Shown here piece by piece: positions 97 through 28,098 of a stretch of DNA of 64,000 nucleotides. The stretch is from Spongiibacteraceae bacterium (GTDB lineage: Bacteria; Pseudomonadota; Gammaproteobacteria; Pseudomonadales; CAMLJR01), in assembly GCA_047602265.1 (NCBI GenBank), contig JASGHU010000001.1, positions 2,691,546-2,755,545 on the forward strand, written 5' to 3'. A program made the position numbers and the translations under genes. The notes below the pieces were generated by a model that saw only the letters and a program-made list of their open reading frames with translations, was not told where the DNA came from and searched no databases. Each line of letters starts with the position of its first letter. Position 1 is the first letter of the stretch.

Positions 97-336
97 ATGC
101 TCGTTCTTTCCCGTAAAATCGGCGAAATTCTCAAAATTGGCGACGATATCGAAGTCCAGATTTTGGACATTAATCGTGGGCAGGTACGCATCGGTATCAG
201 CGCGCCCAAAAGCACCAATATTGTTCGCACGGAATTACTTGATAGGCCGCGCAACCCTGAAATGCCGATACCTGTAGCGGACACTGCTTCGGATCAAAAA
301 CCTCCTGTACGTATTTTGCGGCGCCGATCTTATTGA
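97..336 (+). CDS. csrA: Carbon storage regulator CsrA/RsmA-family RNA-binding protein (79 aa, extended C-terminal tail)
   Basis: MLVLSRKIGE.L.IGDDI.V.IL....GQVRIGI.APK matches the canonical CsrA N-terminus nearly position for position. A GGAG RBS lies about 8 nt upstream. Confidence 0.85.
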   Translation: MLVLSRKIGEILKIGDDIEVQILDINRGQVRIGISAPKSTNIVRTELLDRPRNPEMPIPVADTASDQKPPVRILRRRSY

Positions 337-373: not shown

Positions 374-397
374 ATTTTCGCGGACGCGAAAATTTTC
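374..397 (+). terminator. Stem-loop ATTTTCGCG-GA-CGCGAAAAT followed by TTTC, between convergent csrA and kfrA-like genes
   Basis: Perfect 9-bp stem read directly at 374-382 and 385-393, with a T-run after it. It overlaps the stop of the minus-strand gene. Confidence 0.5.
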
Positions 398-6239: not shown

Positions 6240-6278
6240 GAAAAAAATTAATCTAATACTAAGTGAAGGAGCATTATC

Positions 6279-9729: not shown

Positions 9730-10563
9730 ATGACTGTCATCGCCGCCGGACTCCCGATGCATAAGAGCTTGTTCGCCGTTCCCAAGATGGATTGCCCCTC
9801 CGAGGAGCGCATGATCCGTCTTGCCTTGGAGGGCACGCCGAATGTGATCAACCTGACATTTAATCTCGGCACGCGCCAAATGGAGGTTTTTCATAGCGGA
9901 GACCTCGGCGATATTGAGCCGAAGCTTATGGCTCTGGGGTTGGGCGCGCATCTCATTGAAACCCGAAGTGTGGAAAACCATCCAGTTTCCGAGGTGCCCG
10001 ATCCCGCATCATCTAAAACAGAAGCCCGCACGTTAAAAACATTGATGGCGATTAACGGGGCGATGTTCGTCGCTGAACTAGGCGTCGGTATAGGGGCACA
10101 ATCGACCGGTTTAATTGCCGACTCACTGGATATGTTTGCCGATGCGGCAGTTTATGGTCTTGCATTGTATGCCGTGGGTAAGAGCGTCGAGCACAAAGTC
10201 CGTGCAGCCCATCTGTCGGGCTGGTTTCAATTGCTGTTGGCACTGGGCGTTCTTATTGAAGTGGGACGCCGCTTTGTTTTCGGTAGTGAACCTGTCTCGG
10301 CACTGATGATGGGAATGGGCTGTTTAGCCCTCGTGGCGAACGTTGCTTGCCTGTATTTAATATCGGGGCAACGCGAGGGTGGCGCCCATATGAAAGCCAG
10401 CTGGATTTTCTCGACCAACGATGTCTTGGCGAATATCGGGGTGATAGCCGCTGGTGTATTGGTGGCTTGGACGGGTTCCCCGTATCCCGATCTTATTATC
10501 GGCACCGTTGTCGGTTGCATTGTATTGAATGGGGCGCGGCGAATTTTGGCGCTGAAACATTAA
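9730..10563 (+). CDS. Cation diffusion facilitator (CDF, CzcD-like) metal exporter with an N-terminal MDCPSEE metal-binding-like extension (start at 9730 or 9757)
   Basis: Six TM helices with the CDF signature region (ADSLDMFADAAVYGLAL... HLSGWF). Divergently placed from the MerR-family gene. Confidence 0.8.
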   Translation: MTVIAAGLPMHKSLFAVPKMDCPSEERMIRLALEGTPNVINLTFNLGTRQMEVFHSGDLGDIEPKLMALGLGAHLIETRSVENHPVSEVPDPASSKTEARTLKTLMAINGAMFVAELGVGIGAQSTGLIADSLDMFADAAVYGLALYAVGKSVEHKVRAAHLSGWFQLLLALGVLIEVGRRFVFGSEPVSALMMGMGCLALVANVACLYLISGQREGGAHMKASWIFSTNDVLANIGVIAAGVLVAWTGSPYPDLIIGTVVGCIVLNGARRILALKH

Positions 10564-10581
10564 TTCGCGAAGGCTGCTGGA

Positions 10582-10866
10582 ATGGAATTGGACATCGCCG
10601 CGCAAATCGAAACCTGGCTGGCAGAGCTCGACGCTGCATTAGCGCAAAGCTCCACGCGTGAGCGCCGCGATGCAGCCCAAGCAGTTTATGAAAAACTCCT
10701 CGCTTTGCGTGAGGAGATCGAGCCGCACGCAAGCACATCCTTGCGATCTCATATGGATAACGCGCTTGCTAAATCGCGACAGTTGCACGACGCGTTTCAT
10801 GCGGAGCTGCAACACGAATTGGAATGGGCCGCGTGCAACACTGGTGATCATGAACAAAATGCGTAA
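10582..10866 (+). CDS. Hypothetical small helical protein
   Basis: ORF only, with a coding-like composition. No recognisable motif. Confidence 0.35.
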   Translation: MELDIAAQIETWLAELDAALAQSSTRERRDAAQAVYEKLLALREEIEPHASTSLRSHMDNALAKSRQLHDAFHAELQHELEWAACNTGDHEQNA

Positions 10867-11218
10867 CTCTCGCTGGATTATCGGACTTCTGTGCCTACTG
10901 CTCATCGTAGTTCGCATCGGCGGAGCGCATTGGCATTTATGCCTGGACGGCAGCGAGCCGCCGCAAGCCATGGAAATGGGAAATGCGGATTGGCATGCCG
11001 ATGATGCTGATCATCACGATGTCGACCTCAAACTGATCGGCGAGGCATTGGCCAAAAACATTGGCGACGGTTTTGATGTCGATTTCCTTGCTGCTTTCGT
11101 ATTGCTGTGGTCATTTCAACTTTCTCAGCGACCGCTGCTTCTAACGCCGTATCGCGAAACGCTGTTTATTCCTCAAGTTTTACCCTTTCACGCGCCACCG
11201 CGCGCACCACCTCGCTAA
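10850..11218 (+). CDS. Membrane-anchored His/Asp-rich small protein, CzcI/DUF2946-like, directly upstream of czcCBA
   Basis: The internal ATG at 10850 gives MNKMRNSRWIIGLLCLLLIVV (signal/anchor), then HWHLC and HADDADHHD, with a C-terminal PPRAPPR. The long upstream extension of the track ORF is not protein-like. Confidence 0.4.
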   Translation: MNKMRNSRWIIGLLCLLLIVVRIGGAHWHLCLDGSEPPQAMEMGNADWHADDADHHDVDLKLIGEALAKNIGDGFDVDFLAAFVLLWSFQLSQRPLLLTPYRETLFIPQVLPFHAPPRAPPR

Positions 11219-11292
11219 TTCCACACCGTTACACCTTAATCGCTTGCGTACTCGCGCGGCTTTTTCGTGGATTTATTGGCTGGAAAAAAATT

Positions 11293-12570
11293 ATGGTTTC
11301 GTTTTTCGCACGTGGCGCGATCGTGTGTCTTTGTATTTTGGTCCCCGCCGCTAATGGCACGTATGCTGCCGAATTTATGGAACCGCGTGGCGAGTTGACA
11401 CTCAGCGCAGCCATCAATGCGGCACTTCAACGTAATCCCGCATTACAAAACGCGGCATTTGAAATTCGTGTTGCGGATGCACGCATCAAACAAGCGGGCC
11501 TACGACCCAATCCCGAATTGGGCATCACGCTGGAAAACTTTGGCGGTAATGGCAGCGTGAGCGGTACTGACGCGCTTGAATCGACTTTGAGTTTGAGCCA
11601 AGTGATCGAACTCGGCGGTAAACGCAATCGTCGGCTCGACGTTGCCCACTTTGGTCGCGATACCGTCTCGATTGAGCGTGAATCGGCACAGCTCGATGTA
11701 CTTGCCGAAGTGGCACGGCGTTTCATTGATGTGGCCGAGCAGCAAGAACAATTGCTGTTGGCGCGGCGTAACACTGAACTCGCTGATAAAACCGTGCGCG
11801 CGATTAACACGCGAGTCGAAGCGGCACGCTCTCCACTCGCGGAAAAAAGTCGTGCATCGATTGCGTTTAACCGCGCACGTCTCGACGAAAAAACCGCGCT
11901 GCAAAATTTATTGAGCTCGCGGCGTCGGCTTGCAGCACTCTGGGGTAGTACCGATCCGCGTTTTGGTGATGCCAAAACCGAATGGTTTGAATTACCGCCT
12001 GTGGCGGAATTCGATACGCTCGTTTCGCAGATGAAATCCAATCCCGATTTTCTGCGCTTTGCGAGTGAAGCGCGCATGCGCGATGCCGAATGGCAACTCG
12101 CGAAAGCGGAAGCAAAATCGAATGTCACGGTCGGTGCCGGTATTCGCCGTTTCGAAGAAACCGGCGATAAGGCATTCGTGGTGAATTTTTCGATGCCGCT
12201 TGCCTTTGGCAGCCGCAATCAAGGCGCGATTCGCGAAGCATCGATTCGACGCGAACAATTACAAAACGATGAGCAGGCTGCATTGATTAATGCACAGGCT
12301 AATCTGTTCGCGTTTTATCAATCACTCGAACTCGCTCGCAACGAAGTTGATCAACTTCGCAATCAAATCATCCCACAAGCCGAAACCGCCTTGAAGCAAA
12401 CACAGGACGGTTACGAGCGCGGACGTTTTTCGTATTTGGAATTGGCTGATGCGCAGCGTGAATTACTCGAATTACAACGCGCTGCGATCGCTGCTGCTGC
12501 CTCTTATCACCGCACGCTCGCCGAAATCGAGCGCTTGACCAACTCGCCGTTGATTGCGACCAAGGATTAA
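11293..12570 (+). CDS. czcC: Outer-membrane efflux protein of a heavy-metal RND system (CzcC/TolC family)
   Basis: A signal peptide begins at the ATG at 11293. Two repeated OEP-type helical halves (LTLSAAINAALQRNPALQ..., ...YERGRFSYLELADAQRELLE). Confidence 0.85.
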   Translation: MVSFFARGAIVCLCILVPAANGTYAAEFMEPRGELTLSAAINAALQRNPALQNAAFEIRVADARIKQAGLRPNPELGITLENFGGNGSVSGTDALESTLSLSQVIELGGKRNRRLDVAHFGRDTVSIERESAQLDVLAEVARRFIDVAEQQEQLLLARRNTELADKTVRAINTRVEAARSPLAEKSRASIAFNRARLDEKTALQNLLSSRRRLAALWGSTDPRFGDAKTEWFELPPVAEFDTLVSQMKSNPDFLRFASEARMRDAEWQLAKAEAKSNVTVGAGIRRFEETGDKAFVVNFSMPLAFGSRNQGAIREASIRREQLQNDEQAALINAQANLFAFYQSLELARNEVDQLRNQIIPQAETALKQTQDGYERGRFSYLELADAQRELLELQRAAIAAAASYHRTLAEIERLTNSPLIATKD

Positions 12571-12574
12571 CAAC

Positions 12575-13627
12575 ATGAAGAACTTGAATGTCCCATCACA
12601 TCCTATTGCGTTAGCACTACTCCTTGCATTTTCACTGCTAGGAGGCTGCGGCGATAAATCAAAAAGCGCGCAGCCCGCCGAAAGCTCTGAGAAAGAAGCC
12701 GGTCATCACGATGGCGATCATGCGGAAGCTGAAGGCGGCAAAGATAAACATGCTGCCGGTAAACACGACGAATCAGAACATAACCAGGGTGAGCATGAAG
12801 GTGGTGCTAAAGAAGAAAAAGTTTCACTGACGGAGGAGCAAATCAAAACAGCGGATATCGAATTTGCACAATCCGGTCCCGTCGCGATTCGCGAAACATT
12901 GCCGCTGTATGGCGTTATTGCTCCGAATGCGGAGCGCATGCGCGATGTTGCTGCGCGTTATGCCGGTGCTATCCGTCGTGTCGACAAAAAAATTGGCGAT
13001 GCGGTTAAACAAGGTGAAACACTCGCGATCGTTGAAAGTAACGAAAGCTTGCAGGCTTATTCGGTTACAGCGCCTTTAACTGGAATCATCACTGTGCGCA
13101 ATGCCAATGTCGGTGAGCAAACAACGGAAAAACCATTATTCACCGTTACTGACTTGTCCACGGTTTGGGTGGAGCTTTCATTATTTCCGCGCGATGTTGC
13201 CAAAGTTCGTGTCGGTCAAACAGCTCGCGTTAAAAGTACCGAGGCAGGATTATCAGCCGATGGCGTCATCGCTTATGTCGCGCCATTTGGTAGTAGCACT
13301 AATCAAACCGTAATGGCGCGTGTTGTTCTTGCAAATCCAGAGCATCGCTGGGCGCCTGGTCTTTATGTGACGGCTGACGTTGCGCTCTCGCAACAATCCG
13401 TAGCGATTGCTGTGCGTAACGACGCTATTCAAACGCTCGAAGGAAAGACCAGCGTTTTTGTCGAACATGACGATGGATTTGAGCCTCGTGCGGTGCGCTT
13501 GGGAAAAAGCGATGGCGAATACAGTGAGGTGTTGGAAGGCTTGGAAGCAGGCCAGCGTTATGCTACTCGCAACAGTTTTGTTTTGAAAGCCGAACTCAAA
13601 AAGGGGGAGGCTTCTCATGACGACTAA
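12575..13627 (+). CDS. czcB: RND membrane fusion protein (CzcB/CusB family) with a His-rich periplasmic N-terminal stretch
   Basis: Lipoprotein-like LLGGCG, the His-rich segment EAGHHDGDHAEAEGGKDKHAAGKHDESEHNQGEHEGG, then an HlyD/MFP barrel-sandwich core. Confidence 0.85.
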   Translation: MKNLNVPSHPIALALLLAFSLLGGCGDKSKSAQPAESSEKEAGHHDGDHAEAEGGKDKHAAGKHDESEHNQGEHEGGAKEEKVSLTEEQIKTADIEFAQSGPVAIRETLPLYGVIAPNAERMRDVAARYAGAIRRVDKKIGDAVKQGETLAIVESNESLQAYSVTAPLTGIITVRNANVGEQTTEKPLFTVTDLSTVWVELSLFPRDVAKVRVGQTARVKSTEAGLSADGVIAYVAPFGSSTNQTVMARVVLANPEHRWAPGLYVTADVALSQQSVAIAVRNDAIQTLEGKTSVFVEHDDGFEPRAVRLGKSDGEYSEVLEGLEAGQRYATRNSFVLKAELKKGEASHDD

Positions 13628-13635
13628 ATTAATAG

Positions 13636-16842
<3,207 letters not shown>

Positions 16843-17241
16843 TGTGACAGCGTAAGCAAAAATTTGCGGTAGATTTAATTAAATAGAAGCTCTGCTGCAA
16901 ACAACCGGTGCGCAAAACATATTGAGGTATTAACTCACCGGCTTTGGTTATGTGCAGCGATATTTGTGGTGCGATTGTAGCTTCGAAGAGATATTTATCA
17001 TGGTATTGCAGTCGGCAACAATTTTAACTATCGGCATTTCAAAATATCGAATGGCCGGTTTGGCCTAATATTGCCGATTTAGTTAACCGGCCGTCGCTGG
17101 TTCGACATATACGACTGTCGGAATAAGCGGTCGCGAATTATCAAATACCGTGAATAGATGTAACGCTGAGCTTTCAAAATTAATGACCCACATGGGCTGC
17201 TTAAAAACCGAAGCGCCGCGAGACATGCCTATTTCGCATCA

Positions 17242-17748
17242 TTAAAAATAAACCCCATGCTGTATTCGCTGCAGCGTTGTCGAAACAAATTCAACACCGG
17301 GCGCCAGCGCCAGTAACTCGATAGGTTTTCGGTAGCGCATCGATCGCGCCTCTGAGCACAACCAAATTTTTGCATTTTCGGGCGTTCCCATAACGCGTTG
17401 CGTGCGCATAAAAACCACGGCCAGTTGCCAAATTGCCGCACTTTGCGCCGACGATAACCGACCTCTGCGATTCGCAGTCAGGCAGCGCCGTTTAAGTGTT
17501 TGTTCCGTGATGGCAAGTGCCGTACTCAGTTCTTGAAATGTAAATCCTGTATGTTTCATCAACGCTCGAATCACCGTATTAGGCAATCCGCGTTTCAATA
17601 GATCGTATAACTCCAGATCCGACGCCAATTTCGGAAGCTGGGACGATATACCTAACAAACTGAGTACAGTGAATAACGATTCCGCGCGCGGATGCTGACA
17701 TTGCGCAATGAGTGCAGCCGCTATTGGAGAATTCAGTGTTGCTGTCAT
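17242..17748 (-). CDS. Xre-like HTH / DUF2384 (MbcA/ParS-type) antitoxin-like protein
   Basis: C-terminal GTPENAKIWL...RKPIELLALAPGVEFVSTTLQRIQHGVYF is the typical toxin-binding DUF2384 signature. The start shares a TGATG overlap with the helicase stop. Confidence 0.75.
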   Translation of the reverse strand: MTATLNSPIAAALIAQCQHPRAESLFTVLSLLGISSQLPKLASDLELYDLLKRGLPNTVIRALMKHTGFTFQELSTALAITEQTLKRRCLTANRRGRLSSAQSAAIWQLAVVFMRTQRVMGTPENAKIWLCSEARSMRYRKPIELLALAPGVEFVSTTLQRIQHGVYF

Positions 17749-19163
17749 TATGTAAGCGTCGGCCTGAAACGCAGCGACAAAATTTCCTGTTTGAATTTGC
17801 CAAACAAATTGATCGTTGAGTCGTACGATTGCGCGAGCGCGGAATACGATGAAGATTCTCGGGGCGGCGTTATTTGATCAGTCGACGGATAAACATCTGC
17901 GTCGATTGTCACGCTCAATGACGTATCTAATGTGGGGGTTGCCGTAGAGGACAGAGGTGTTGTCTCGTTCGGGCGCGGCCGTTTCGGCATGCGTTCGAAT
18001 CGAATAGTATCCATGGCCGGTATGTCGCTGGCGATGCGTTCGGCATATTGCGTCAGTGTCGGCTCCGCGGGCATATACAAATACGCGGTTTCATCGACGT
18101 CGCCGCTGGATCGCAAAATACGTCCCAGGACCTGTCGAAAATACAATTCAGTTTTGACACGCGTTAAATGGCAGCACACGCGCAAACGAGGAATATTTGT
18201 TCCCTCACTGATCATGCCGACAGAAATAATCCATTTTTGCGTACCTGTCTTGAACTCTCTGATGATATGTGTCGCATCATCCTCATAATACGTAGCAATC
18301 AACGCGTTCTCGTTGAGTGTCTTCTTTAACAAACGCGCAATTTGATGCGCATGCGCAACGGAGGCAGCGACAATGAGTCCGCCGGCGTTTGGAATCGTTT
18401 TTCGAAGTTCGTCTAATTTTTTATTGGCCTGACGAACGATATAGCCGATGAGAGCATCGTGTTCGAGTAATTGTTGATACGCGCAGCAGGATTCTTCTAA
18501 CACGGTTTTGATACTGTTAAATTGCCGTGAGCTGAAGCCTTCGTTAACGGTGATATGGTCATTATCGATGACGATGAATTTGGGAATACGGCAGACGCGG
18601 TCTTGAATGGATTGATAAAGCCCGTACTGGTAATCGCAGTGGATTTGCTGCGACTGCGAACAATAACGCGACAACACAATCGGAATACGATCGGAGCGCC
18701 ACGGTGTTCCTGTGAGGGCAAGCGTGCAGGCAGCGCGTCCCTGAATTTCACAAAGAATCTTTTCGCCCCACGCATTGGCAGTCTCTTGCGTGTGACCGGC
18801 GCAGTGATGAATTTCATCGAAAATCACGAACACGCGGTGACGTGAAAACAAGGTCCAAAAACTATCGGCCACACTGAGCATGGCCTGATACGTCATTGTG
18901 CAACCGCGTGAGCCGAGCAAACCATCCATGCGATGATCGGTTTGAATTTCTAATTCGGCGCGAAAATCATCGGCCACGATCACCGACGGCGCGAAACACA
19001 TGACCAGATCGATCATTCCCTCATCGAATAATTGTTTGGCGAGCAACGCCGCCATGCGCGTTTTACCGGCGCCCGGTGTCGCCAGGCAGAGAAAATCGGA
19101 TTGCCCACCTTCATATTGTTGATGCGCCTGTGCGATGCACTCGGCTTGCCAGCGACGAAGCAT
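17748..19163 (-). CDS. Superfamily-2 DEXH helicase (ResIII-like)
   Basis: Motif I ATPGAGKT, motif II DEIHH, motif III LTGTPWR and a C-terminal helicase lobe. The ~70 C-terminal residues are low-complexity. Confidence 0.75.
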   Translation of the reverse strand: MLRRWQAECIAQAHQQYEGGQSDFLCLATPGAGKTRMAALLAKQLFDEGMIDLVMCFAPSVIVADDFRAELEIQTDHRMDGLLGSRGCTMTYQAMLSVADSFWTLFSRHRVFVIFDEIHHCAGHTQETANAWGEKILCEIQGRAACTLALTGTPWRSDRIPIVLSRYCSQSQQIHCDYQYGLYQSIQDRVCRIPKFIVIDNDHITVNEGFSSRQFNSIKTVLEESCCAYQQLLEHDALIGYIVRQANKKLDELRKTIPNAGGLIVAASVAHAHQIARLLKKTLNENALIATYYEDDATHIIREFKTGTQKWIISVGMISEGTNIPRLRVCCHLTRVKTELYFRQVLGRILRSSGDVDETAYLYMPAEPTLTQYAERIASDIPAMDTIRFERMPKRPRPNETTPLSSTATPTLDTSLSVTIDADVYPSTDQITPPRESSSYSALAQSYDSTINLFGKFKQEILSLRFRPTLT

Positions 19164-19699
19164 CAGATGTGCTGCGCAGCCAGGTGATTCGAAAGAATCG
19201 ACTCCAATGCTTTGACGCGCCCCAACGTTTTGGAGCAGCGTTCGCGCGCGTCGTTATAGAGCGCTTGCACGGCGTTTTTTAGATGCGGAAGCTGCGTGCA
19301 AATGGCATCGTATTCTTCCGTTTCCCCGATCACGCTCAGCATTTCCTCTTTGTAGCTGTGCAATTTTTCTCTCAAACAACGCAGCGTTGCATCCTCATGC
19401 AAATCCTCATGGCTAGCCCTCGACTGTGGGGAGATCGCCACCGTATCCGTTGGCTCGCTAAGGCGGTAGCGCGCTTTTTCGCCGGGCCGCTCGGCTAAAC
19501 GCCGCAGCAATCCCTGGGTTTCCATGCGCTGGACGTGGCGATACACAAATTGCCAGGCGGCCTTGTCAGTGCGGTGGGGACATCCGGGCAGCGCCATGTA
19601 GGTGCTCTTGAGCTCAGAAACCGTGAAGTCATTCCATCGACCAGCCCCGAGTAAATTCAAAAGTTCTTGGCTGATTTTGCGCTTCTTCATAGTTTTCAA
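19163..19699 (-). CDS. Hypothetical protein, possible winged-helix N-terminus plus coiled-coil C-terminus. First gene of the helicase operon.
   Basis: ORF with a TGATG overlap onto the helicase start. The fold assignment is only a guess from ...WQFVYRHVQRMETQGLLRR... Confidence 0.4.
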   Translation of the reverse strand: MKTMKKRKISQELLNLLGAGRWNDFTVSELKSTYMALPGCPHRTDKAAWQFVYRHVQRMETQGLLRRLAERPGEKARYRLSEPTDTVAISPQSRASHEDLHEDATLRCLREKLHSYKEEMLSVIGETEEYDAICTQLPHLKNAVQALYNDARERCSKTLGRVKALESILSNHLAAQHI

Positions 19700-19803
19700 G
19701 GATTACTTATGCGTTTAGCTAATTTAAAATGGGTACTATATCCCGTGGAGCTATAGCCGGCAAATTGGAATAGTCACTGCTTTCGAGCAAGTGACCATTT
19801 CCC

Positions 19804-20013
19804 ATGGCCCGAAACCCTCTGGTTGAATTCGGCAAACGTGTCCGCGCGATACGTAAAGCGGCCGGCTTCTCCCAAGAAGCGTTGGCAGACTATGCCGATA
19901 TCGATCGCTCCTACCTCGGCGCGATTGAGCGTGGCGAGGTCAATCTCACCCTCATAAAAATCCATCAAATCGCCAAGGCGTTGCGTATCTCACCGAAAGA
20001 GTTTTTCTCCTAA
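19804..20013 (+). CDS. XRE-family helix-turn-helix transcriptional regulator (69 aa)
   Basis: FGKRVRAIRKAAGFSQEALADYADIDRSYLGAIERGEVNLTL is a canonical HTH_3/Cro-C1 motif. Confidence 0.8.
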   Translation: MARNPLVEFGKRVRAIRKAAGFSQEALADYADIDRSYLGAIERGEVNLTLIKIHQIAKALRISPKEFFS

Positions 20014-20089: not shown

Positions 20090-21088
20090 GTGAACGAACC
20101 TCTGCATGTCGATGACTACATCAGTGCTGCCACTGCTTCCAATACACGGCGCAGTTATCAATCGGCCATCCAACATTTTGAAATGGAGTGGCGCGGATTT
20201 TTACCCGCGACAGCCGACAGCATTGCGCGTTATCTCGCAGCCTATGCACCGACGCTCGCCCTTAACACATTAAAACAACGACTGGCAGCATTGGCGCAGT
20301 GGCATATCGAGCAGGGTTTTCCCGACCCCACCAAAGCCCCACTGGTTAAGAAAACCTTGAAAGGAATTCAGGCGCTGCATCCAGAACCCATTAAGCGAGC
20401 GAAGCCTTTCCAATTAAACCAATTGGATCATCTGGTGGCCTGGCTCGATCAGCGCATCGCTCTGGCAAGTAGCGCCGAACAACGTCCAACGCGATTAAAA
20501 GCCGCGCGCGATAAAGCGTTGGTATTGATTGGGTTCTGGCGAGGTTTTCGTAGCGATGAACTCGGGAGTTTGCGCGTAGAACATATCACCGCCATTCCTG
20601 ATGAAGGCATGACGCTGTTCGTGCCGTCAACGAAAACAGAGCGCAGCGGTTACGGCGCAACTTTTAAAACGCCAGCGTTATCGCGATTGTGTCCCGTCAC
20701 GGCGTATGCCCAATGGATTGCACTGAGTGAGTTATCGGAAGGACCTGTTTTCCGTCGCATCGATCGGTGGGGAAATATTGGCGATGAGGGCTTGCATCCG
20801 AATAGTTTTATTCCACTGCTGCGAGAATTATTTCGCATCGCAGGTATCGATGATCCCACGAGCTACAGCAGTCATTCGCTACGCCGCGGTTTTGCCACAT
20901 GGGCCAATGCCAATGGTTGGGATATTAAAACATTGATGGAGTACGTCGGCTGGAAAGACGTGCAATCGGCGATGCGCTATATCGATGTTGGCGATGCATT
21001 TGTACGTCAACGCATCGAACAGGCAATACTCCCGTCAATGCGACCACCGATAACGCAGCAGATTGAAGACGACCACACGCATAAATAA
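20090..21088 (+). CDS. Tyrosine site-specific recombinase/integrase
   Basis: SAM-like N-domain, then a catalytic domain with ...RGFRSDELGSL..., HSLRRGFATWA and ...GWKDVQSAMRYI (the R..HxxR..Y pattern). Confidence 0.85.
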   Translation: MNEPLHVDDYISAATASNTRRSYQSAIQHFEMEWRGFLPATADSIARYLAAYAPTLALNTLKQRLAALAQWHIEQGFPDPTKAPLVKKTLKGIQALHPEPIKRAKPFQLNQLDHLVAWLDQRIALASSAEQRPTRLKAARDKALVLIGFWRGFRSDELGSLRVEHITAIPDEGMTLFVPSTKTERSGYGATFKTPALSRLCPVTAYAQWIALSELSEGPVFRRIDRWGNIGDEGLHPNSFIPLLRELFRIAGIDDPTSYSSHSLRRGFATWANANGWDIKTLMEYVGWKDVQSAMRYIDVGDAFVRQRIEQAILPSMRPPITQQIEDDHTHK

Positions 21089-22947: not shown

Positions 22948-23781
22948 ATGAAAAAACCAACCGAAGTTTTGTACGGTCGGTTTCAAGAGGCCTATGACTT
23001 CTTCAACGACCGTTTATTTGAAAACAAGCTACCCGCTTGCGTGATCACGTTTCAGCGTCAAAAGCGCATTATGGGGTACGTATCGCTGGAGCGCTGGATC
23101 AATCAGCAGCAGGAGTATACCCACGAGTTGGCGATTAACCCAGAATACTTCGCGAATTACCCCCTGGTCGAAATCTGCCAAACCCTCTGCCATGAAATGG
23201 TCCACATCTGGCAAGCCCAATTCGGCAATGCCGGCCGGCGCGGTTATCACAACCGGCAGTGGGCGAACAAAATGATGGTCATCGGCCTCATGCCTTCCAC
23301 GACGGGCGAGCCCGGCGGTGACATTGTCGGTGAGCATGTGGGGGATTACATTCTTAATGATGGGCCTTTCATCAGGGCTTTTAATGAGCTGGCCTCGTCG
23401 GGATTTCATCTGGCCTGGATGGACCGCTATCCCGTCGTGCGAGAGGAAACCACGACTGTCATTTATACTCAGTCAGGAAAACCCGTCGAGCTCGATACCA
23501 AGGCACCTGCAGCCGCCAGTATGTTGATGGAGCGGCGCTCGGAACATTCCACGACACAATTGCCGTATTCGTTTGAAGAGCTAGATGCGGCGTTTACCTC
23601 TGCTTTTACGCCGCAATTGCTGCCGCCTGCACAGGTGGGCAGTGTGCCCACCACACGACCAAAAATATCCAGCAACAAACACAAATACCGCTGTCCGAAA
23701 TGCCATCTGCAGCTATGGGGAAAACCCGAGCTTTACGTTATTTGTGGCGAGTGCAATGCCGCGCTGGTCGAAAGCGAATAA
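22948..23781 (+). CDS. SprT-like zinc metalloprotease domain protein with a C-terminal zinc ribbon
   Basis: N-terminal SprT-like region with HEMVH (HExxH). C-terminal CPKC...CGEC ribbon. Confidence 0.8.
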   Translation: MKKPTEVLYGRFQEAYDFFNDRLFENKLPACVITFQRQKRIMGYVSLERWINQQQEYTHELAINPEYFANYPLVEICQTLCHEMVHIWQAQFGNAGRRGYHNRQWANKMMVIGLMPSTTGEPGGDIVGEHVGDYILNDGPFIRAFNELASSGFHLAWMDRYPVVREETTTVIYTQSGKPVELDTKAPAAASMLMERRSEHSTTQLPYSFEELDAAFTSAFTPQLLPPAQVGSVPTTRPKISSNKHKYRCPKCHLQLWGKPELYVICGECNAALVESE

Positions 23782-23782
23782 C

Positions 23783-26700
23783 CTATGTGCCGAGAATTTC
23801 CCGTAATAGGTCTTGAAGGTCCAGCCGCTTGCCGTCGAATGAAAAGGTATAGCTCCCATTGAAATTGATGTGCGTCCACGCCACGGGTGAACAGTGTTTC
23901 ATTTCTTCAAGCTTTACCAATTGATTGGTGCGTTCGAAACCTTGAACCAACAGCGACAAAATGCTCGAATTGAAATAGATCACACAGTTCGCAATTAAGC
24001 GACTGCATTCGTACCACAGCGAAATTTCCGCATCGGAATTACCACGAAATTGACTGCCATTCACTTCTTCGATGCGACGTAACAGCGCATGGTAGGACTC
24101 ACCACGGTTCAATGCGCGTTGCACATAACCACGAACACTGCTGTCATCGATAAAATCCAACAGATAAATGCATTTGATTAGTCGATCGTATTCGGCCAGT
24201 GCTTTGAATGGATTACTTTTGGCTTTGAAACGCGACATTTTGCGCACGAGATTGGCTTGCGATACCTCCTGACTATGTAAGCTGACCATGACCTGCTGAA
24301 TGAATGCCCAATTTTTCTCAATCAGGTCGTAGTTGATGGGTTTCAGTAAGGTCACCTCGCAACCATTCTCACTCTCTGTGTAGCCGAATAGACTCGCCAG
24401 AATTTTGCCCGGCCGTTTATACCGGGGAGCAAACTCCCAGCCGTGACAGTCCAAGATGGCGAAATTAAATTGATTCGCGCCATGCGTATCGGTCGAGATC
24501 ACATCGGGTTTAATCTCGGACGTATTGTTATAGAGCACGTCAAATAAATAATGCGATTCATGCGTGTACGGTTTCATGATCTCGGCATTGACGGGCACAT
24601 GGTTGGCACACAACGACACGGCCGACAGGCCTTTACCGCGCCCGAAATATTTTGAGGAGTAATGGGTACTGATAGTGTTGTAGCGGCTTTCGAAACGCTG
24701 GCCGTCAAAGCTTGCGTGCAGCACATTTTCTTGAATGTTGTAGTACTTAAAGATTTCCAATTGGGAGATGGCGTTGCTGATGACATCGTTAGCGGCATGA
24801 ATGGTTTCACCGCGCAGGTGATTTTTTTCTGCTTGCCGCAACTCATCGTAGGGAAGATTGCAAAGCGTCGCCATATGATGCGTACCGTAGCGCGTGCCAT
24901 TGGCGACGATACAGGCAATGATGGCGTTCAAATTGGATGGCGGTTTGCGCAGGCGAATATGGGTCAGCTGGGATGAGAAGTTAAGATTTCTTTCCGCAAA
25001 GGCAATAATGTCGCCAATGTGAAGCTGCTTAATTTGACTGTAGAAATCCTCGGATTTATCAACCTCATCCTTGGCGCGACGTTTGATAGTCCATTTTATT
25101 TTCCCGTTATTTTCAGTAAAAATCACGGAAGAGTTTTCGCCCGCACCGAGACGTGCTCCCACAGCCTTTCTTTTCTTCTCCAGCACCGCTTTTTTCTCAG
25201 CGAGTATTTCATTGATTGGCCGCTTTAGTGTTATGTAATTGCTCATCGCGACGAGCTCAGGAACATCCTCAGCCAGTACAAAATCATCTTCGTACCACTT
25301 ATACGATAAGCTGTCCTCAACATAAAATTTCAAGTCTTCAAGCCGGTCCTTGATGCGGATATACATCAACACTTCGGCGCGGATGAGATTGACGCCGCCA
25401 TCGCTGTCATCGGCATCGAATAATAAATAGGGTTTCAACTGCGGTTTAATGAGGCGAGCATCGAAATTCTGCATCTTTCCCGACGTTATCATTTCCTCTT
25501 TGGAGAGACGAACCTGGCGCAACAGCGGTTGAGCTGATTCATCGCGGGAATCGAATGTATGGCAGAGAAATAATTTTCGCAGTATGGTTTTTATGCGGCT
25601 GTGTTTCGCCTCGTAAAATTCCCATTGAAACTCTTTGTGGTCGGTTTTTATGCCGGCGATAAACTTGCTGACGCCAGGCATTTGGTCCTTGGGTAGAATT
25701 TCATAAGCTTTTTTCTGGGCAACAGAAAAAGCTGTCCTCCCTTTAATTTTTCCATCGTAGAAAATATCGATTAGAGGGCTGGCTTTTTTATATTTCTCAT
25801 CCATGTTTTTGAGTTCATTAAATTGTTTGTCCTTGCCATAGATCTCGGCTTCGTCCTCCAATTTGCGCACATGATAGATAAACCCCTGAATCAAAATATC
25901 GCTGATTTGGAAATAGCGTTGATAGAGAAAGCAGGATAAATACAGCGCAAAAGCGCCTGCGGACAATCTGCGTAATCGTGAAATCGAGTAGTAGGTAACC
26001 AGATATGCAAAATAATCGATGTTCTTTTTGGAGAGGCCAAGCGCTTCTACAGAGGCGCAAATGTTCGGAAATACTTCGCTTATTTTCTCAAAGACCTCAA
26101 TTTCCGCATAAATTTCTTTTTTCTGAAAACTTTTTGGTAGCTTTTTTATTTGCGTAATCAGTGGCTTTTTTTCTTCGGCGTAGGCCATTTGCTTAAGGGT
26201 TTCTACATCGCTATCGCCCAAAAAGAATAATATTTTCTCTTCGAGGGCTCGTTCCTCACTTTGGAGCCCCGCGGAAATTATTTTTTGAAGCGTGCTATAC
26301 GCTGGAATAGCTACCTTTTTCTCTGCTAGGTGATGTATACAGCTATCAAACACCTCGCGTGGTTCGACAATCTGAGCAGAAAGGCGGCGAACGAAATCAG
26401 TAAGCTGATGCTTGGCATCATCATAAATTTCATGGCCGTAAAAACCCAAAATAGAGGCATAGATGCGAGATTTTTGGGTACTGCTCAATTCGGCATGGGT
26501 TAATTTCACCGGGATTTGATACTTATTGCGTATATAGACGAGGTCGGTTTTCACCTCCGCGACGGTTGGATTCAGAACTACCGGCTTATATTTGAAATAA
26601 CCCAGCAGCAGGATACGGTAGGCATTGGTAATAGCGTCATTACGAGGGGAGAAAAGTGCTCGTTCAGCGTCATCTAATTCGAAGAAGAACTCTCGTTCGG

Positions 26701-26788
26701 CATCGGTGAATCGCGGTACGCAATAGAGTTCTTCCACCTCTGAGTTAGTCAGTATCTCAATTCTTTTATCATTGTCTGCCATGGTCAT
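23783..26788 (-). CDS. tnpA: Tn3-family DDE transposase
   Basis: N-terminus MTMADNDKRIEILTNSEVEELYCVPRFTDAEREFFFELDD (DUF4158-type), ~1000 aa, C-terminal DDE_Tn3 region. More AT-rich than the flanks by eye. Confidence 0.9.
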   Translation of the reverse strand: MTMADNDKRIEILTNSEVEELYCVPRFTDAEREFFFELDDAERALFSPRNDAITNAYRILLLGYFKYKPVVLNPTVAEVKTDLVYIRNKYQIPVKLTHAELSSTQKSRIYASILGFYGHEIYDDAKHQLTDFVRRLSAQIVEPREVFDSCIHHLAEKKVAIPAYSTLQKIISAGLQSEERALEEKILFFLGDSDVETLKQMAYAEEKKPLITQIKKLPKSFQKKEIYAEIEVFEKISEVFPNICASVEALGLSKKNIDYFAYLVTYYSISRLRRLSAGAFALYLSCFLYQRYFQISDILIQGFIYHVRKLEDEAEIYGKDKQFNELKNMDEKYKKASPLIDIFYDGKIKGRTAFSVAQKKAYEILPKDQMPGVSKFIAGIKTDHKEFQWEFYEAKHSRIKTILRKLFLCHTFDSRDESAQPLLRQVRLSKEEMITSGKMQNFDARLIKPQLKPYLLFDADDSDGGVNLIRAEVLMYIRIKDRLEDLKFYVEDSLSYKWYEDDFVLAEDVPELVAMSNYITLKRPINEILAEKKAVLEKKRKAVGARLGAGENSSVIFTENNGKIKWTIKRRAKDEVDKSEDFYSQIKQLHIGDIIAFAERNLNFSSQLTHIRLRKPPSNLNAIIACIVANGTRYGTHHMATLCNLPYDELRQAEKNHLRGETIHAANDVISNAISQLEIFKYYNIQENVLHASFDGQRFESRYNTISTHYSSKYFGRGKGLSAVSLCANHVPVNAEIMKPYTHESHYLFDVLYNNTSEIKPDVISTDTHGANQFNFAILDCHGWEFAPRYKRPGKILASLFGYTESENGCEVTLLKPINYDLIEKNWAFIQQVMVSLHSQEVSQANLVRKMSRFKAKSNPFKALAEYDRLIKCIYLLDFIDDSSVRGYVQRALNRGESYHALLRRIEEVNGSQFRGNSDAEISLWYECSRLIANCVIYFNSSILSLLVQGFERTNQLVKLEEMKHCSPVAWTHINFNGSYTFSFDGKRLDLQDLLREILGT

Positions 26789-27171
26789 CCGTCCCAAACA
26801 AAAAGGCCGAATTTTAACCAGGGCATGATGACGGCCAGCGTGCATGGCGCACGAAAGTTGGGACGCAAAGGGGCTGAGGCTAGAGAAGGGTCGAAAATGA
26901 CAGTTTTGGGGCAAAAACGCTGCCGGGTTTTTGGTCCCCGAGCCTAGAGCCTAGCGGTCTGCAGGGGCGATGTGTAGGATTTGGCGGAAACTATCTGGAA
27001 CCCCCACTTCCAAAAAATTCTATTTAAATTTTCACAAATCAGTCGCGCTAAACCAATTGATGGCTATAGACGGTTGACGCAACCCATAGAAGAAAACGAT
27101 CTTAGCTTATATCGTTTTTCGAAATCTTAACGCTCAATTATTTGGCATCTTTTTGAATAGGGGTAGATATC

Positions 27172-28098
27172 ATGGCCGAATCTGAAGCGCGTCTCGCCTT
27201 AGGCGACGCTGCGGCTAGACAGCTTGCAAATGCAACGAAGACACGTCCGCAGCTTTCTACAATCTCACCGCGCTGGCTCGTGAATTTTCTGCAATGGCTA
27301 CCGGTCGAAGCGGGTATTTACCGCGTAAACAAAGTTAAAAATCCCCTCAACGTCACCGTTGCCTGCACGCAACGCGACGAGTCGGAATTGCCGCAAACAT
27401 TCGTCGACTACGAAGAAAATCCGCGCGAATATTTTTTGAATTCGGTCACCACCGTGCTCGATGTACATACCCGCGTTTCAGATCTCTACAGCAGTCCTCA
27501 CGATCAGATTAAAGAGCAATTGCGTCTGACGATCGAAACGATCAAAGAACGCCAGGAAAGCGAACTTATCAACAATCCTGAGTACGGTTTGCTTGCCAGT
27601 ATTGCCGACGAACAACGCATTCCGACACTAACCGGCGCTCCTACGCCTGATGATATGGATGACTTGATTTCGAAAGTCTGGAAAGAGCCAGCGTTTTTCC
27701 TCACTCATCCACTGGCTATTGCCGCTTTTGGTCGTGAGTGCACACGCCGCGGTGTGCCACCTCCCACTGTGAGCTTGTTCGGTTCGCAATTTTTAACATG
27801 GCGTGGACTACCGCTGGTGCCGTCGGATAAATTCCCGATTGAAGACGGGAAAACTAAAATTTTGTTGATGCGCGTTGGTGAAAAGCGCCAAGGCGTAGTT
27901 GGTTTATTTCAACCAGGCTTGGCAGGCGAGCAAAGCCCCGGTCTATCGGTACGCTTCATGGGCATCGGTCGCAATGCTATCGCCTCGTATTTAATTTCGC
28001 TGTATTGCTCGCTTGCTGTCCTGACCGAAGACGCTCTCGCAGTTCTCGAAGATGTTGAAGTCGGTAAATATCATGAATACCCCGATACCTACCGCTAA
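27172..28098 (+). CDS. Family 2A encapsulin nanocompartment shell protein (SrpI-like)
   Basis: ~300 aa with no cNMP-binding insertion. The N-terminal ARQLANATKTRPQLSTISPRWLVNFLQWLPVEAGIYRVNKV resembles, from memory, the family 2 shell N-terminus. It sits directly upstream of, and overlaps, a cysteine desulfurase with a long disordered N-terminus. Confidence 0.75.
   Translation: MAESEARLALGDAAARQLANATKTRPQLSTISPRWLVNFLQWLPVEAGIYRVNKVKNPLNVTVACTQRDESELPQTFVDYEENPREYFLNSVTTVLDVHTRVSDLYSSPHDQIKEQLRLTIETIKERQESELINNPEYGLLASIADEQRIPTLTGAPTPDDMDDLISKVWKEPAFFLTHPLAIAAFGRECTRRGVPPPTVSLFGSQFLTWRGLPLVPSDKFPIEDGKTKILLMRVGEKRQGVVGLFQPGLAGEQSPGLSVRFMGIGRNAIASYLISLYCSLAVLTEDALAVLEDVEVGKYHEYPDTYR

What the first reader, a model, noticed from the sequence alone, without database searches (positions are those of the whole stretch)
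17242..19699. Translationally coupled wHTH / SF2 helicase / DUF2384 antitoxin-like operon lacking the expected RES toxin
Three minus-strand genes are linked by identical TGATG stop-start overlaps at 19163 and 17748. The last gene encodes an Xre/DUF2384 (MbcA/ParS-type) protein. In characterised systems that protein neutralises a RES-domain or ParT toxin encoded immediately downstream. Here no RES-like ORF follows, and the antitoxin-like gene is instead welded to a DEXH helicase.

Either the helicase (or the 178-aa protein) is the partner controlled by the DUF2384 domain, which would be a non-canonical toxin-antitoxin or abortive-infection-like arrangement. Or the toxin was lost and the antitoxin retained. 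The operon sits next to an XRE regulator and an integrase, which is typical defence-island territory.
Basis: partly seen in the sequence, partly recalled or inferred. Interest (0 to 1): 0.6.

Follow-up and report, generated by a model that had tools for sequence, protein, structure and literature searches.

The report
Helicase operon carrying orphan antitoxin-like gene
A regulator-plus-helicase gene pair that is common on bacterial mobile elements has here acquired an antitoxin-like third gene whose usual toxin partner was never found in any relative examined, and the operon's real fourth gene, a small exonuclease, has been cut off by a rearrangement.

Summary
The three minus-strand genes are real and overlap stop-to-start, as TGATG at 19163 but TAATG at 17748. 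Gene 1 is a VspR-family winged-helix protein. Gene 2 is a RadD/XPB-like SF2 ATPase. Gene 3 is a genuine Xre/DUF2384 antitoxin-type protein.

No RES toxin exists anywhere in the 64 kb, nor in any related locus. Its first ~21 codons are the start of a DEDDh exonuclease-like fourth gene, which continues for at least 102 codons to the contig end in a 93%-identical metagenomic relative. Homology breaks at 17166, next to a czcCBA cluster.

The conserved unit is a divergent XRE gene facing VspR-helicase. The pair was found in 79 of 83 loci, on plasmids and islands next to integrases, R-M systems and Tn3 transposases. DUF2384-type genes are a rare but recurrent add-on to this unit, never with RES, and under purifying selection (dN/dS 0.16).

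Best reading: this is an accessory regulator or partner-binding subunit of a mobile-element helicase cassette, not a decayed RES-Xre pair. A helicase/exonuclease "toxin" model stays open. It is a new variant of known kinds and of moderate interest.

The parts
19163..19690 (-). VspR-family regulator-like protein (175 aa from the ATG at 19690; the TTG at 19699 gives 178 aa). It has an N-terminal winged HTH, a disordered linker and a C-terminal helical hairpin.
   Evidence: The identical protein P0126 carries precomputed PF27213 VspR_N and PF27192 VspR_C, as do orthologues in L086, L087 and L088. The AlphaFold model has pLDDT 80.8 with an H-E-H-H-E-E wing followed by two long helices. Its best PDB folds are PadR/VanR wHTH regulators, E 2e-4. 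The local Pfam and PADLOC copies give no hit.
17748..19163 (-). SF2 DExH ATPase/helicase of the RadD/XPB/restriction-motor type. It is translationally coupled to gene 1 by a TGATG overlap.
   Evidence: It matches ResIII (E 1.3e-10) and Helicase_C (E 3.3e-6). GAGKT, DEIHH, TGTP and QvLGRiLR are invariant across 22 homologues. The NCBIfam RadD hit is far below cut-off. The fold search places RadD first (E 6e-14), then SauUSI, XPB and HsdR. dN/dS is 0.047 against L089.
17242..17748 (-). Xre/DUF2384 (MbcA/ParS-type) antitoxin-like protein of 168 aa. It has a lineage-specific N-terminal extension (QCQHPRAESLF) and a TAATG overlap with the helicase stop.
   Evidence: It matches PF20432 and PF09722, TIGR02293 above cut-off and NF049845 at 84.9 bits against a cut-off of 90. 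In the PDB it matches 8gug_B (E 4e-6) and the P. putida Xre antitoxin 6gw6_B. dN/dS is 0.16 against L089 and 0.15 between L084 and L096.
17083..17226 (-). Truncated remnant of a fourth gene (DEDDh / RNase T-DnaQ-like exonuclease family). Only about 21 codons (17226-17166) are homologous; the rest is read-through into unrelated DNA.
   Evidence: L089 carries the same ORF uninterrupted for at least 102 codons. The window reads MSRGASVFKQPMWVINFESSAL|..., against L089 MPRDTSVFEQPMWVIDFESSGLHRSSYPIEVG.... Full-length plasmid homologues of 167-176 aa carry the Exo I/II/III motifs. L093 hits PF00929 RNase_T at E 1.3e-4, and the L089 fragment hits DnaQ 8h18 at E 0.04. The Exo I Asp is Asn in the window, with 6 non-synonymous and 3 synonymous changes in 21 codons.
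17165..17166 (.). Rearrangement breakpoint: the end of homology with the intact four-gene relative.
   Evidence: blastn shows window 19704-17166 matching L089 1-2539 at 93.2% identity, with nothing beyond. The 323 bp at 16843-17165 match no other locus and nothing else in the window.
19700..19803 (.). Divergent control region between the VspR-like gene and the XRE gene. It carries three copies of a ~10-nt operator-like motif (19727-19737, 19769-19778, 19790-19800) and a sigma-70-like promoter on the minus strand (19763-19735).
   Evidence: The inverted repeats are I2 and I3. The promoter-like site reads TTGCCG-17-TATAGT; promoter-like sites are not enriched over shuffles in the region. The region is nearly identical to that of L087, although the proteins are only 50-66% identical.
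19804..20013 (+). Divergently transcribed XRE-family HTH regulator (69 aa), the third member of the conserved cassette.
   Evidence: It matches HTH_3 at E 6.9e-15. A homologue sits in the same divergent position in at least 24 related loci and in plasmids L001-L003.
20090..21088 (+). Tyrosine recombinase, possibly a TnpS-type resolvase of the surrounding Tn3-family element. This is context, not part of the operon.
   Evidence: It matches Phage_integrase at E 1.1e-13. Homologues lie next to the cassette in 9 loci. In five of them the recombinase lies divergent to a homologue of the KfrA_N protein at window 397-1401.

Best explanation
**The conserved unit (shown).** The locus is one copy of a widespread, horizontally mobile cassette. 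An XRE repressor-type gene faces a translationally coupled pair: a VspR-family winged-helix protein and a RadD/XPB-like SF2 DNA-dependent ATPase. An operator-rich divergent promoter region lies between them.

**The add-on genes (shown).** In one narrow sub-lineage the operon gained extra genes downstream. These are one or two Xre/DUF2384-type genes, a short ~128-aa form and a long ~168-aa form. In the nearest relative there is also a small DEDDh exonuclease-like gene. In this window the exonuclease gene was truncated after about 21 codons by a rearrangement at 17166, which abuts a czcCBA metal-efflux cluster. This leaves VspR-helicase-DUF2384.

**Not a decayed RES-Xre pair (shown).** No RES was found next to any examined member of this DUF2384 subfamily, and the gene is intact and under purifying selection.

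**Mechanism (inferred).**
- XRE and the VspR-like protein bind the repeated motifs and set expression of the operon.
- The VspR-like protein works physically with the helicase. A natural fusion of the two exists.
- The helicase translocates on DNA, originally together with a nuclease or phosphoesterase encoded in the variable downstream slot.
- The DUF2384 protein uses its Xre-like HTH to bind DNA.
- Its MbcA/ParS-type C-terminal domain holds a protein partner from the operon, either the helicase or the exonuclease. It would thus act as an accessory regulator or inhibitor rather than as the antidote of an NAD+-degrading toxin.
For: **Cassette conservation**
- The helicase has at least 3698 database relatives. 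346 hits were confirmed in species-representative genomes.
- The VspR-like gene lies directly upstream in 79 of 83 loci, and a divergent XRE gene in at least 24.
- The same trio occurs on Alteromonas, Klebsiella and Pseudomonas plasmids.
- A natural VspR-helicase fusion exists: L016/P0063, 668 aa.
- The VspR assignment comes, and the wHTH fold. The helicase fold is RadD/SauUSI/XPB-like.
- Operator-like repeats lie in a conserved control region.

**Fourth gene and breakpoint**

**No RES**
- Pfam on the downstream frames found nothing.
- A RES HMM was built from four RES genes adjacent to the nearest plasmid DUF2384 homologues. It recovers a frameshifted RES in L101, but nothing in the window or in any helicase locus.

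**Recurrence of DUF2384-type genes at the cassette**
- L089, L084 and L096 carry the long form with a stop/start overlap.
- L088 and L103 carry the short form, also overlapping.
- L078/L082, L076, L040 and L021 are further cases.
- All five hits in the genome loci lie within 1.1 kb of the cassette. None lie in the 547 kb further out.

**Selection**
- dN/dS is 0.16 for the DUF2384 gene.

**Redundant forms**
- Decay is reciprocal: L088 keeps the short form plus a remnant of the long form, and L090 the reverse. This suggests the two forms are interchangeable.
Against: - No direct evidence of any protein-protein contact exists.
- There are no DUF2384-helicase fusions among the 150 best of 1504 relatives; the longest is 331 aa.
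- About 90% of cassette copies lack a DUF2384 gene, so it is dispensable for the core function.
- The slot after the helicase is variable: HAD/NT5C, Metallophos, DUF6957, integrase. DUF2384 could therefore be unrelated cargo.
- The gene after DUF2384 differs between lineages. It is an exonuclease in L089, an unknown ORF in L084/L096 and an unannotated 157-aa ORF in the P0123 contig.
- The next-nearest subfamily member (P0155/L104) has neither a helicase nor a RES gene beside it.
- The proximity enrichment rests on four or five partly related loci (p about 0.02-0.04).
- The function of the cassette itself is unknown, and no paper on it was found.
Confidence: 0.5

Rival explanations
1. Orphan antitoxin as independent cargo. 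The DUF2384 gene is a solitary antitoxin-type gene that landed in the variable slot behind the helicase. It could act as an anti-addiction factor against RES/ParT toxins of competing elements, or as a plain transcription factor. It uses the operon's transcription but has no functional tie to the helicase.
For: - The slot after the helicase holds many unrelated genes.
- Most cassettes lack DUF2384.
- The nearest outgroup, P0155/L104, is an orphan beside a MazE-like gene with no helicase.
- L090 has the long form with no helicase visible on a short contig.
- The protein keeps all the canonical antitoxin features seen in bona fide Xre partners of RES.
Against: - The stop/start overlap with the helicase is conserved for two different DUF2384 forms.
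- The association recurs in several helicase lineages and only close to the cassette.
- No RES was detected in the 64-kb window that it could counteract in cis. A trans target cannot be excluded.
Confidence: 0.25
2. Non-canonical toxin-antitoxin or abortive-infection module. The helicase, with or without the exonuclease, is a toxic effector. The DUF2384 protein holds it in check and releases it on phage infection or loss of the element.
For: - The gene order matches type II TA logic in reverse, with translational coupling.
- The DUF2384 C-domain is a toxin-binding module in MbcA/ParS/Xre (Pfam PF09722; PDB matches).
- Neighbours are rich in defence and mobile-element genes: CBASS in L002, a DNA methyltransferase and a second DEAD/DEAH helicase in L003, type I R-M components among cassette neighbours in the 80 genome loci, KAP NTPase in L001, an OLD-like AAA_15 ATPase in L087, nSTAND and Fic in L086, and E2/E1/JAB-patatin in the window.
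- The helicase fold is nearest to restriction motors and RadD.
Against: - About 90% of helicase copies exist without any DUF2384, so the helicase is not inherently toxic.
- The window copy lost the exonuclease yet kept DUF2384 under constraint.
- No PADLOC defence family matches the set beyond generic helicase-domain hits.
- Small DEDDh homologues stand alone on plasmids without a DUF2384 neighbour.
Confidence: 0.15
3. Classical RES-Xre (or ParST) pair whose toxin gene was deleted or decayed in place.
For: - The nearest plasmid homologues (31-36% identity) are canonical Xre-RES pairs in 4 of 5 cases examined.
- A downstream gene was truncated here.
Against: - The truncated gene is exonuclease-like, not RES.
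- Only 323 bp remain beyond it, and they carry no RES signal.
- None of the six other subfamily contexts examined shows a RES gene.
- The RES HMM detects even a frameshifted RES in L101, so the search is sensitive.
Confidence: 0.03
4. Recombination-directionality or element-control factor. The DUF2384 HTH protein assists or regulates the adjacent tyrosine recombinase or Tn3-family element, and the helicase operon merely provides expression.
For: - A tyrosine recombinase lies 400 bp from the operon start.
- Integrases are the commonest neighbours of the cassette: 14 of the 109 nearest ORFs.
- One published ICE-annotation pipeline used the DUF2384 profile among its excisionase markers (PMC8138268).
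Against: - No experimental basis for DUF2384 acting as an excisionase was found.
- The DUF2384 gene is coupled to the helicase, not to the recombinase.
- Most integrase-linked cassettes lack it.
Confidence: 0.07

Closest known systems
Xre-RES / MbcA-MbcT / ParS-ParT type II toxin-antitoxin antitoxins (COG5642, DUF2384, TIGR02293)
   Same: It has the same two-domain build, an Xre-like HTH plus a C-terminal toxin-binding domain, and it aligns end to end with solved antitoxins 8gug_B and 6gw6_B. It is also of similar size and has a stop/start overlap with a neighbouring gene.
   Different: - No RES/ParT gene lies beside it, in the window, or beside any subfamily member.
- It is the last gene of a helicase operon rather than the first gene of a two-gene module.
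- It has an extra conserved N-terminal segment, QCQHPxAExLF.
- It scores just under the NCBIfam Xre_ParS_antitoxin cut-off.
VspR (VC0177), repressor of the CBASS operon on Vibrio cholerae island VSP-1
   Same: Gene 1 carries the two Pfam domains named after VspR and has a winged-HTH fold. It lies on a mobile island with an XRE-type gene next to it. A homologous cassette lies directly beside a capV-dncV-cap2 CBASS on a Klebsiella plasmid. VspR is described as a negative regulator of CBASS genes (PMC10653837).
   Different: - Here it is translationally coupled to an SF2 helicase. The VSP-1 papers read do not mention this.
- Direct similarity to the V. cholerae protein was not measured.
- The PADLOC-DB copy used gave no hit.
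- No CD-NTase CBASS is present in the window.
RadD, XPB(-Bax1) and restriction-enzyme SF2 motors (SauUSI, HsdR)
   Same: It has a two-RecA-lobe DExH core with all motifs, and these are its best structural matches. XPB works with a dedicated nuclease partner, as the intact four-gene operon might.
   Different: - It is far below the RadD equivalog cut-off, 46.8 bits against 720.
- It has no fused nuclease domain.
- It has its own insertion at about residues 150-235, and a conserved C-terminal helix after a disordered linker.
Toxin-antitoxin passenger modules of Tn3-family transposons (Lima-Mendez et al. 2020, PMC7157771)
   Same: An antitoxin-type gene lies in a Tn3-family context close to the recombinase gene. 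A Tn3 transposase (NF033527, 619 bits) lies 4 kb away. The cassette recurs with tnpA and SprT-like genes in L086, L087 and L015.
   Different: That paper lists complete TA pairs and mentions neither DUF2384, Xre nor a helicase. Here no toxin exists, and only one transposon end was found.

Membership tests
Xre/MbcA/ParS (DUF2384) antitoxin family | N-terminal Xre-like HTH domain (PF20432) | tested here: met
   E 2.4e-8, 34.6 bits against a cut-off of 25.8, residues 47-110.
Xre/MbcA/ParS (DUF2384) antitoxin family | C-terminal toxin-binding domain (PF09722) and a whole-protein family model | tested here: met
   PF09722 scores 26.5 bits against 24.5. TIGR02293 scores 68.1 against 57. NF049845 scores 84.9 against 90, just below cut-off. 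PDB 8gug_B matches at E 4e-6.
Xre/MbcA/ParS (DUF2384) antitoxin family | Cognate RES-domain or ParT toxin encoded immediately adjacent | tested here: not met
   No Pfam hit in the three frames of 16843-17241. The RES HMM with --max over six frames of the window and all loci finds none, while detecting the positives and a frameshifted RES. The adjacent ORF is an exonuclease remnant.
Xre/MbcA/ParS (DUF2384) antitoxin family | Neutralises its toxin and autoregulates the operon | not testable with these tools
   This needs co-expression and EMSA experiments.
VspR family regulators | VspR_N (PF27213) plus VspR_C (PF27192) architecture | tested here: met
   The 100%-identical protein P0126 and 27 further homologues carry both domains in the precomputed Pfam table. 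The local Pfam copy lacks these models.
VspR family regulators | Winged-helix DNA-binding fold | tested here: met
   In the AlphaFold model, residues 5-77 form H-E-H-H-E-E. Foldseek hits PadR/VanR wHTH regulators at E 2e-4 to 1e-3.
VspR family regulators | Represses neighbouring island genes (CBASS in VSP-1) | not testable with these tools
   There is only positional evidence: operator-like repeats in the divergent region and CBASS next to the cassette in L002.
SF2 helicase, RadD/XPB-like | Walker A, DExH, motif III and motif VI, with ResIII + Helicase_C domains | tested here: met
   fold matches.
RadD (NCBIfam NF053632 equivalog) | Score above the equivalog cut-off | tested here: not met
   46.8 bits against 720. 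It is RadD-like in fold only.
DEDDh (RNase T / DnaQ-like) exonuclease, for ORF 17226-17083 | Exo I, II and III motifs in one intact reading frame | tested here: not met
   Only the Exo I region survives, and its Asp is Asn (VINFESS). Homology ends at 17166. Intact relatives show all the motifs.
Known anti-phage defence systems (PADLOC-DB 2.0.0) | Significant whole-protein match of the components to one system's models | tested here: not met
   Only partial helicase-domain hits (PbeA, mREase_IV, type IV DinG). The VspR-like and DUF2384 proteins give nothing.
Tn3-family transposon (context) | Tn3 transposase plus a pair of terminal inverted repeats enclosing the operon | tested here: inconclusive
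   The transposase is met (NF033527, 619 bits). One IR-like end lies at 27005-26977, but no partner lies in the window.

The most novel reading that the evidence does not exclude
The XRE | VspR-helicase cassette is an uncharacterised, very widespread mobile-element system, either defensive or controlling the element. In this reading the helicase works with an exchangeable downstream nuclease or phosphoesterase. Candidates are a DEDDh exonuclease, NT5C/HAD or Metallophos. In some lineages a DUF2384 protein has been re-purposed from RES antitoxin to inhibitor or adaptor of that helicase-nuclease effector. This would be the first non-RES partner for the MbcA/ParS toxin-binding domain.
Probability: 0.2. 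Interest if true: 0.7.

Novelty: new variant of a known kind. Interest (0 to 1): 0.45.

Why it matters
- DUF2384/MbcA/ParS antitoxins are known only as partners of RES/ParT NAD+-targeting toxins. A conserved, selected subfamily that never sits next to RES and is welded to a helicase operon would widen what that binding domain can control.
- The analysis also exposes a very common but undescribed three-gene cassette: an XRE gene, a VspR-family protein and a RadD-like helicase. It lies on plasmids, islands and Tn3-type elements next to CBASS, R-M and other conflict systems.
- VspR is so far known only as a CBASS repressor in V. cholerae. Its usual pairing with a helicase suggests a regulatory or effector mechanism that has not been studied.
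- For genome annotation, the result warns against calling such genes 'antitoxin with missing toxin'.

Tried and rejected
- **RES/ParT remnant downstream.** Pfam on three frames and a custom RES HMM over six frames were both negative.
- **Exact-sequence look-ups.** Look-ups of the window helicase and of P0121 found nothing on record.
- **DNA similarity to plasmids.** Only short 70-75% patches inside the helicase gene matched.
- **Phages.** The helicase has only distant phage relatives (<=33% identity), so this is not a phage replication module in any obvious way.
- **DUF2384 + exonuclease as a recurrent pair.** Five plasmid homologues of the exonuclease have no DUF2384 neighbour.
- **DUF2384 fused to a helicase.** None among the best 150 relatives.
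- **Second Tn3 inverted repeat, or a source for the 323-bp junction segment.** Not found.
- **Upstream cluster at 1659-6239 as a CBASS matching the VspR link.** It has E2/E1/JAB and patatin but no CD-NTase hit; its first ORF looks MBL-like.
- **Metagenome scan for more DUF2384 relatives.** It gave one locus only, L096.
- **Literature.** Searches for VspR + helicase and for DUF2384 + helicase found no relevant paper.
- **PADLOC 'VSPR'.** It is a non-defence category in the published pipelines, but the library copy used gave no hit to gene 1.


Full report
**Observation**

Three co-directional minus-strand ORFs occupy 19699-17242. The first junction is TGATG and the second is TAATG. Both are one-base stop/start overlaps, but they are not identical as claimed.

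Pfam confirms ResIII and Helicase_C for the 471-aa protein. It confirms Xre-like-HTH plus Xre_MbcA_ParS_C for the 168-aa protein. NCBIfam places the 168-aa protein in TIGR02293, above cut-off, and just under the cut-off of the RES/Xre antitoxin subfamily. It aligns over its whole length with the solved DUF2384 chain 8gug_B (a DUF2384 domain-containing protein) and with the Xre antitoxin 6gw6_B.

The 178-aa protein had no hit in the local Pfam, NCBIfam or PADLOC copies. Its true start is probably the ATG at 19690, and the 175-aa product is identical to protein P0126 of a Spongiibacteraceae MAG. P0126 carries the precomputed domains VspR_N and VspR_C. An AlphaFold model (pLDDT 80.8) shows a winged HTH, a disordered linker and a long helical hairpin. 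PadR/VanR regulators are its best PDB folds.

**What lies downstream**

In fact an ORF of 47 codons starts 15 nt after the DUF2384 stop.

A metagenomic contig, L089, is 93.2% identical to window 19704-17166 and carries the same three genes. It also carries a fourth gene that runs at least 102 codons to the contig end. The window ORF matches it for about 21 codons (MSRGASVFKQPMWVINFESSAL) and then diverges. Homology ends at 17166.

The fourth gene belongs to a family of 167-176-aa proteins with Exo I (DxE), Exo II and Exo III (H-x4-D) motifs.
- One member hits RNase_T (PF00929) over its full length, at E 1.3e-4.
- The L089 fragment weakly matches a solved DnaQ, at E 0.04.

In the window the Exo I Asp is Asn, and the remnant shows 6 non-synonymous against 3 synonymous changes. 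The 323 bp between the break and the czcA stop match nothing else. So a downstream gene was lost, but it was an exonuclease-like gene.

**No RES**

Pfam found nothing in the three downstream frames, even at E 10. I took four RES genes that overlap the nearest plasmid DUF2384 homologues and built an HMM from them. I searched every stop-to-stop segment of the window and of all loci with the filters off.

The HMM found the four positives and a frameshifted RES pseudogene in S. meliloti (L101). It found nothing in the window or in any helicase locus.

Other members of this DUF2384 subfamily also lack a RES gene:
- L084 and L096.
- L090, where the downstream gene is convergent.
- The P0123 contig, where the downstream 157-aa gene has no Pfam family on record.
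- L104.

The subfamily is small. Only two 50%-identity clusters reach E <= 1e-30 among 1.84 billion representatives.

**The conserved unit**

The helicase has thousands of relatives of about 470 aa. In 80 genome loci plus three plasmids, the VspR-like gene lies directly upstream in 79 of 83 cases. It usually overlaps the helicase start. A divergent XRE gene is detectable in at least 24.

One genome encodes the two as a single 668-aa fusion, which argues that they act together.

The 104-bp divergent region holds three copies of a 10-nt motif and a promoter-like site. It is almost identical in L087, although the proteins are only 50-66% identical.

The helicase model resembles RadD first, then SauUSI, XPB and HsdR.

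The nearest neighbours of the cassette are integrases (14 of 109 ORFs), type I R-M genes, Tn3 transposases, and HAD/NT5C and Metallophos enzymes. Individual loci show:
- CBASS (L002).
- A DNA methyltransferase with a second helicase (L003).
- A KAP NTPase (L001).
- RHS/PoNi (L085).
- nSTAND and Fic (L086).
- An OLD-like ATPase (L087).

No paper describing the cassette was found. VspR itself is known as the repressor of the VSP-1 CBASS genes (PMC10653837).

**How DUF2384 relates to the cassette**

With the window protein as query, only one of the 83 loci (the 80 genome loci plus three plasmid loci) showed a homologue. Closer relatives and profile searches give a fuller picture.

| Form and position | Loci | Helicase identity |
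|---|---|---|
| Long form (168 aa), overlaps the helicase stop | L089, L084/L096 | 97%, 73% |
| Short form (128-129 aa) with PF09722, same overlapping position | L088, L103 | 84%, 81% |
| No DUF2384 gene | L085, L086, L087 | 66-78% |

L088 also keeps a 48-codon remnant of the long form, and L090 keeps the long form plus a remnant of the short one.

Distant helicase lineages carry other DUF2384-type genes within 1.1 kb of the cassette:
- L078/L082 (149 aa).
- L076 (136 aa).
- L040 (161 aa, opposite strand).
- L021 (162 aa, upstream).

None lies in the 547 kb of flank further than 3 kb away.

The gene is under purifying selection: dN/dS is 0.16 against L089 and 0.15 between L084 and L096. The helicase gives 0.047.

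So the pairing is recurrent but rare, at about 6-10% of copies. The slot behind the helicase also holds HAD/NT5C, Metallophos and DUF6957 genes.

**Interpretation**

Shown:
- The cassette itself and the VspR identity of gene 1.
- The add-on status of DUF2384.
- The truncated exonuclease gene.
- The absence of RES.
- The selective constraint on the DUF2384 gene.

Inferred: the DUF2384 protein serves the operon as a DNA-binding and partner-binding accessory factor. Support comes from the conserved coupling, the recurrence close to the cassette, and the apparent interchangeability of the two forms.

Against this:
- There is no interaction evidence.
- No fusions exist.
- Most cassettes do without it.
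- An orphan outgroup exists.

The main rival is independent orphan-antitoxin cargo. A decayed RES-Xre pair is effectively excluded.

**Context**

The window appears to come from a Spongiibacteraceae MAG. The operon lies in a mosaic island of about 27 kb. Its contents, in window order, are:
- CsrA and a KfrA_N protein (97-1401).
- An E2/E1/JAB-patatin cluster (1659-7223).
- A CDF transporter and czcCBA-like genes (9730-16842).
- The cassette itself.
- A tyrosine recombinase.
- Two unknown genes.
- SprT-like and Tn3 transposase genes (22948-26914).

Encapsulin and sulfur-metabolism genes follow. L087 carries many of the same blocks in a different order. This fits transposon-mediated rearrangement as the cause of the break at 17166, but only one IR-like end was found.

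**Verdict**

The locus is a new variant built from known parts: an Xre/DUF2384 antitoxin-type protein, with no RES partner found in any relative examined, attached to a widespread but unstudied VspR-helicase cassette. Interest is moderate. The cassette itself may be the more rewarding target.

Noticed in passing
window 1659-7223: A conflict-system-like cluster. It comprises a 745-aa fusion of Prok-E2_A, ThiF (E1) and Prok-JAB, a patatin phospholipase, and two flanking ORFs with MBL-like HxHxDH motifs (read by eye, no Pfam hit). It resembles ubiquitin-like/CBASS-accessory systems, but no CD-NTase was detected.
   Followed up: partly
window 97-336 and 397-1401: A CsrA homologue, then a KfrA_N-domain protein on the minus strand. 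Homologues of the KfrA_N protein lie divergently next to the integrase homologue in L040, L048, L057, L071 and L077. That is the TnpT/TnpS layout of some Tn3-family elements. In the window the two genes are 18.7 kb apart.
   Followed up: partly
window 22948-26914 and 26977-27005: A SprT-like metalloprotease gene converges on a Tn3-family transposase gene. The same pair recurs beside the cassette in L086, L087, L015, L062 and L064. One IR-like end (GGGGGTTCCAGATAGTTTCC...) lies 63 bp beyond the tnpA start, with no partner in the window.
   Followed up: partly
window 9730-16842; L078 10382-13510: A CDF transporter plus OEP/HlyD/RND (czcCBA-like) efflux genes. An RND gene also lies convergent to the helicase operon in a Pseudoalteromonas locus, so metal-efflux clusters repeatedly neighbour this cassette; czcA homologues occur in 13 loci.
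   Followed up: partly
L016 4666-6672 (protein P0063): A natural fusion of the VspR-like protein and the helicase into one 668-aa protein in a gammaproteobacterial MAG.
   Followed up: partly
downstream of the helicase in L004-L083: The gene slot after the helicase is variable but repeatedly holds nucleotide or nucleic-acid enzymes: HAD/NT5C-type (6 of 64), calcineurin-like phosphoesterase (3), DUF6957 (3), HAD_SAK_2.
   Followed up: partly
window 17748-18050 (helicase residues ~396-471): The helicase ends in a low-confidence P/S/T-rich linker followed by a conserved helix (residues 442-464; L443, Y447, G455 and F457 are invariant in 22 homologues). This looks like a docking motif.
   Followed up: no
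L088 2064-2654; L090 1-730: Short (128 aa) and long (168-172 aa) DUF2384 forms occur in tandem with reciprocal decay. L088 has an intact short form plus a 48-codon remnant of the long form. L090 has an intact long form plus a stop-interrupted remnant of the short form.
   Followed up: partly
window 17673-17703 (DUF2384 residues 16-26): An invariant N-terminal motif, QCQH(P)xA(E/Q)xLF, is shared by all five subfamily members and absent from canonical Xre antitoxins.
   Followed up: no
window 27172-30049: A type 2A encapsulin shell protein (SrpI-like, E 1e-104) is followed by a 665-aa cysteine desulfurase with an N-terminal extension, next to sulfate ABC transporter genes.
   Followed up: no
L084 1826-1923; L096 ~4466-4686: A conserved ORF of unknown family (MxxxLRDHLxQITxIGDxTKHRGKIIALAYLHPH...) follows the DUF2384 gene in the L084/L096 lineage, in place of the exonuclease. 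It has no Pfam hit.
   Followed up: partly
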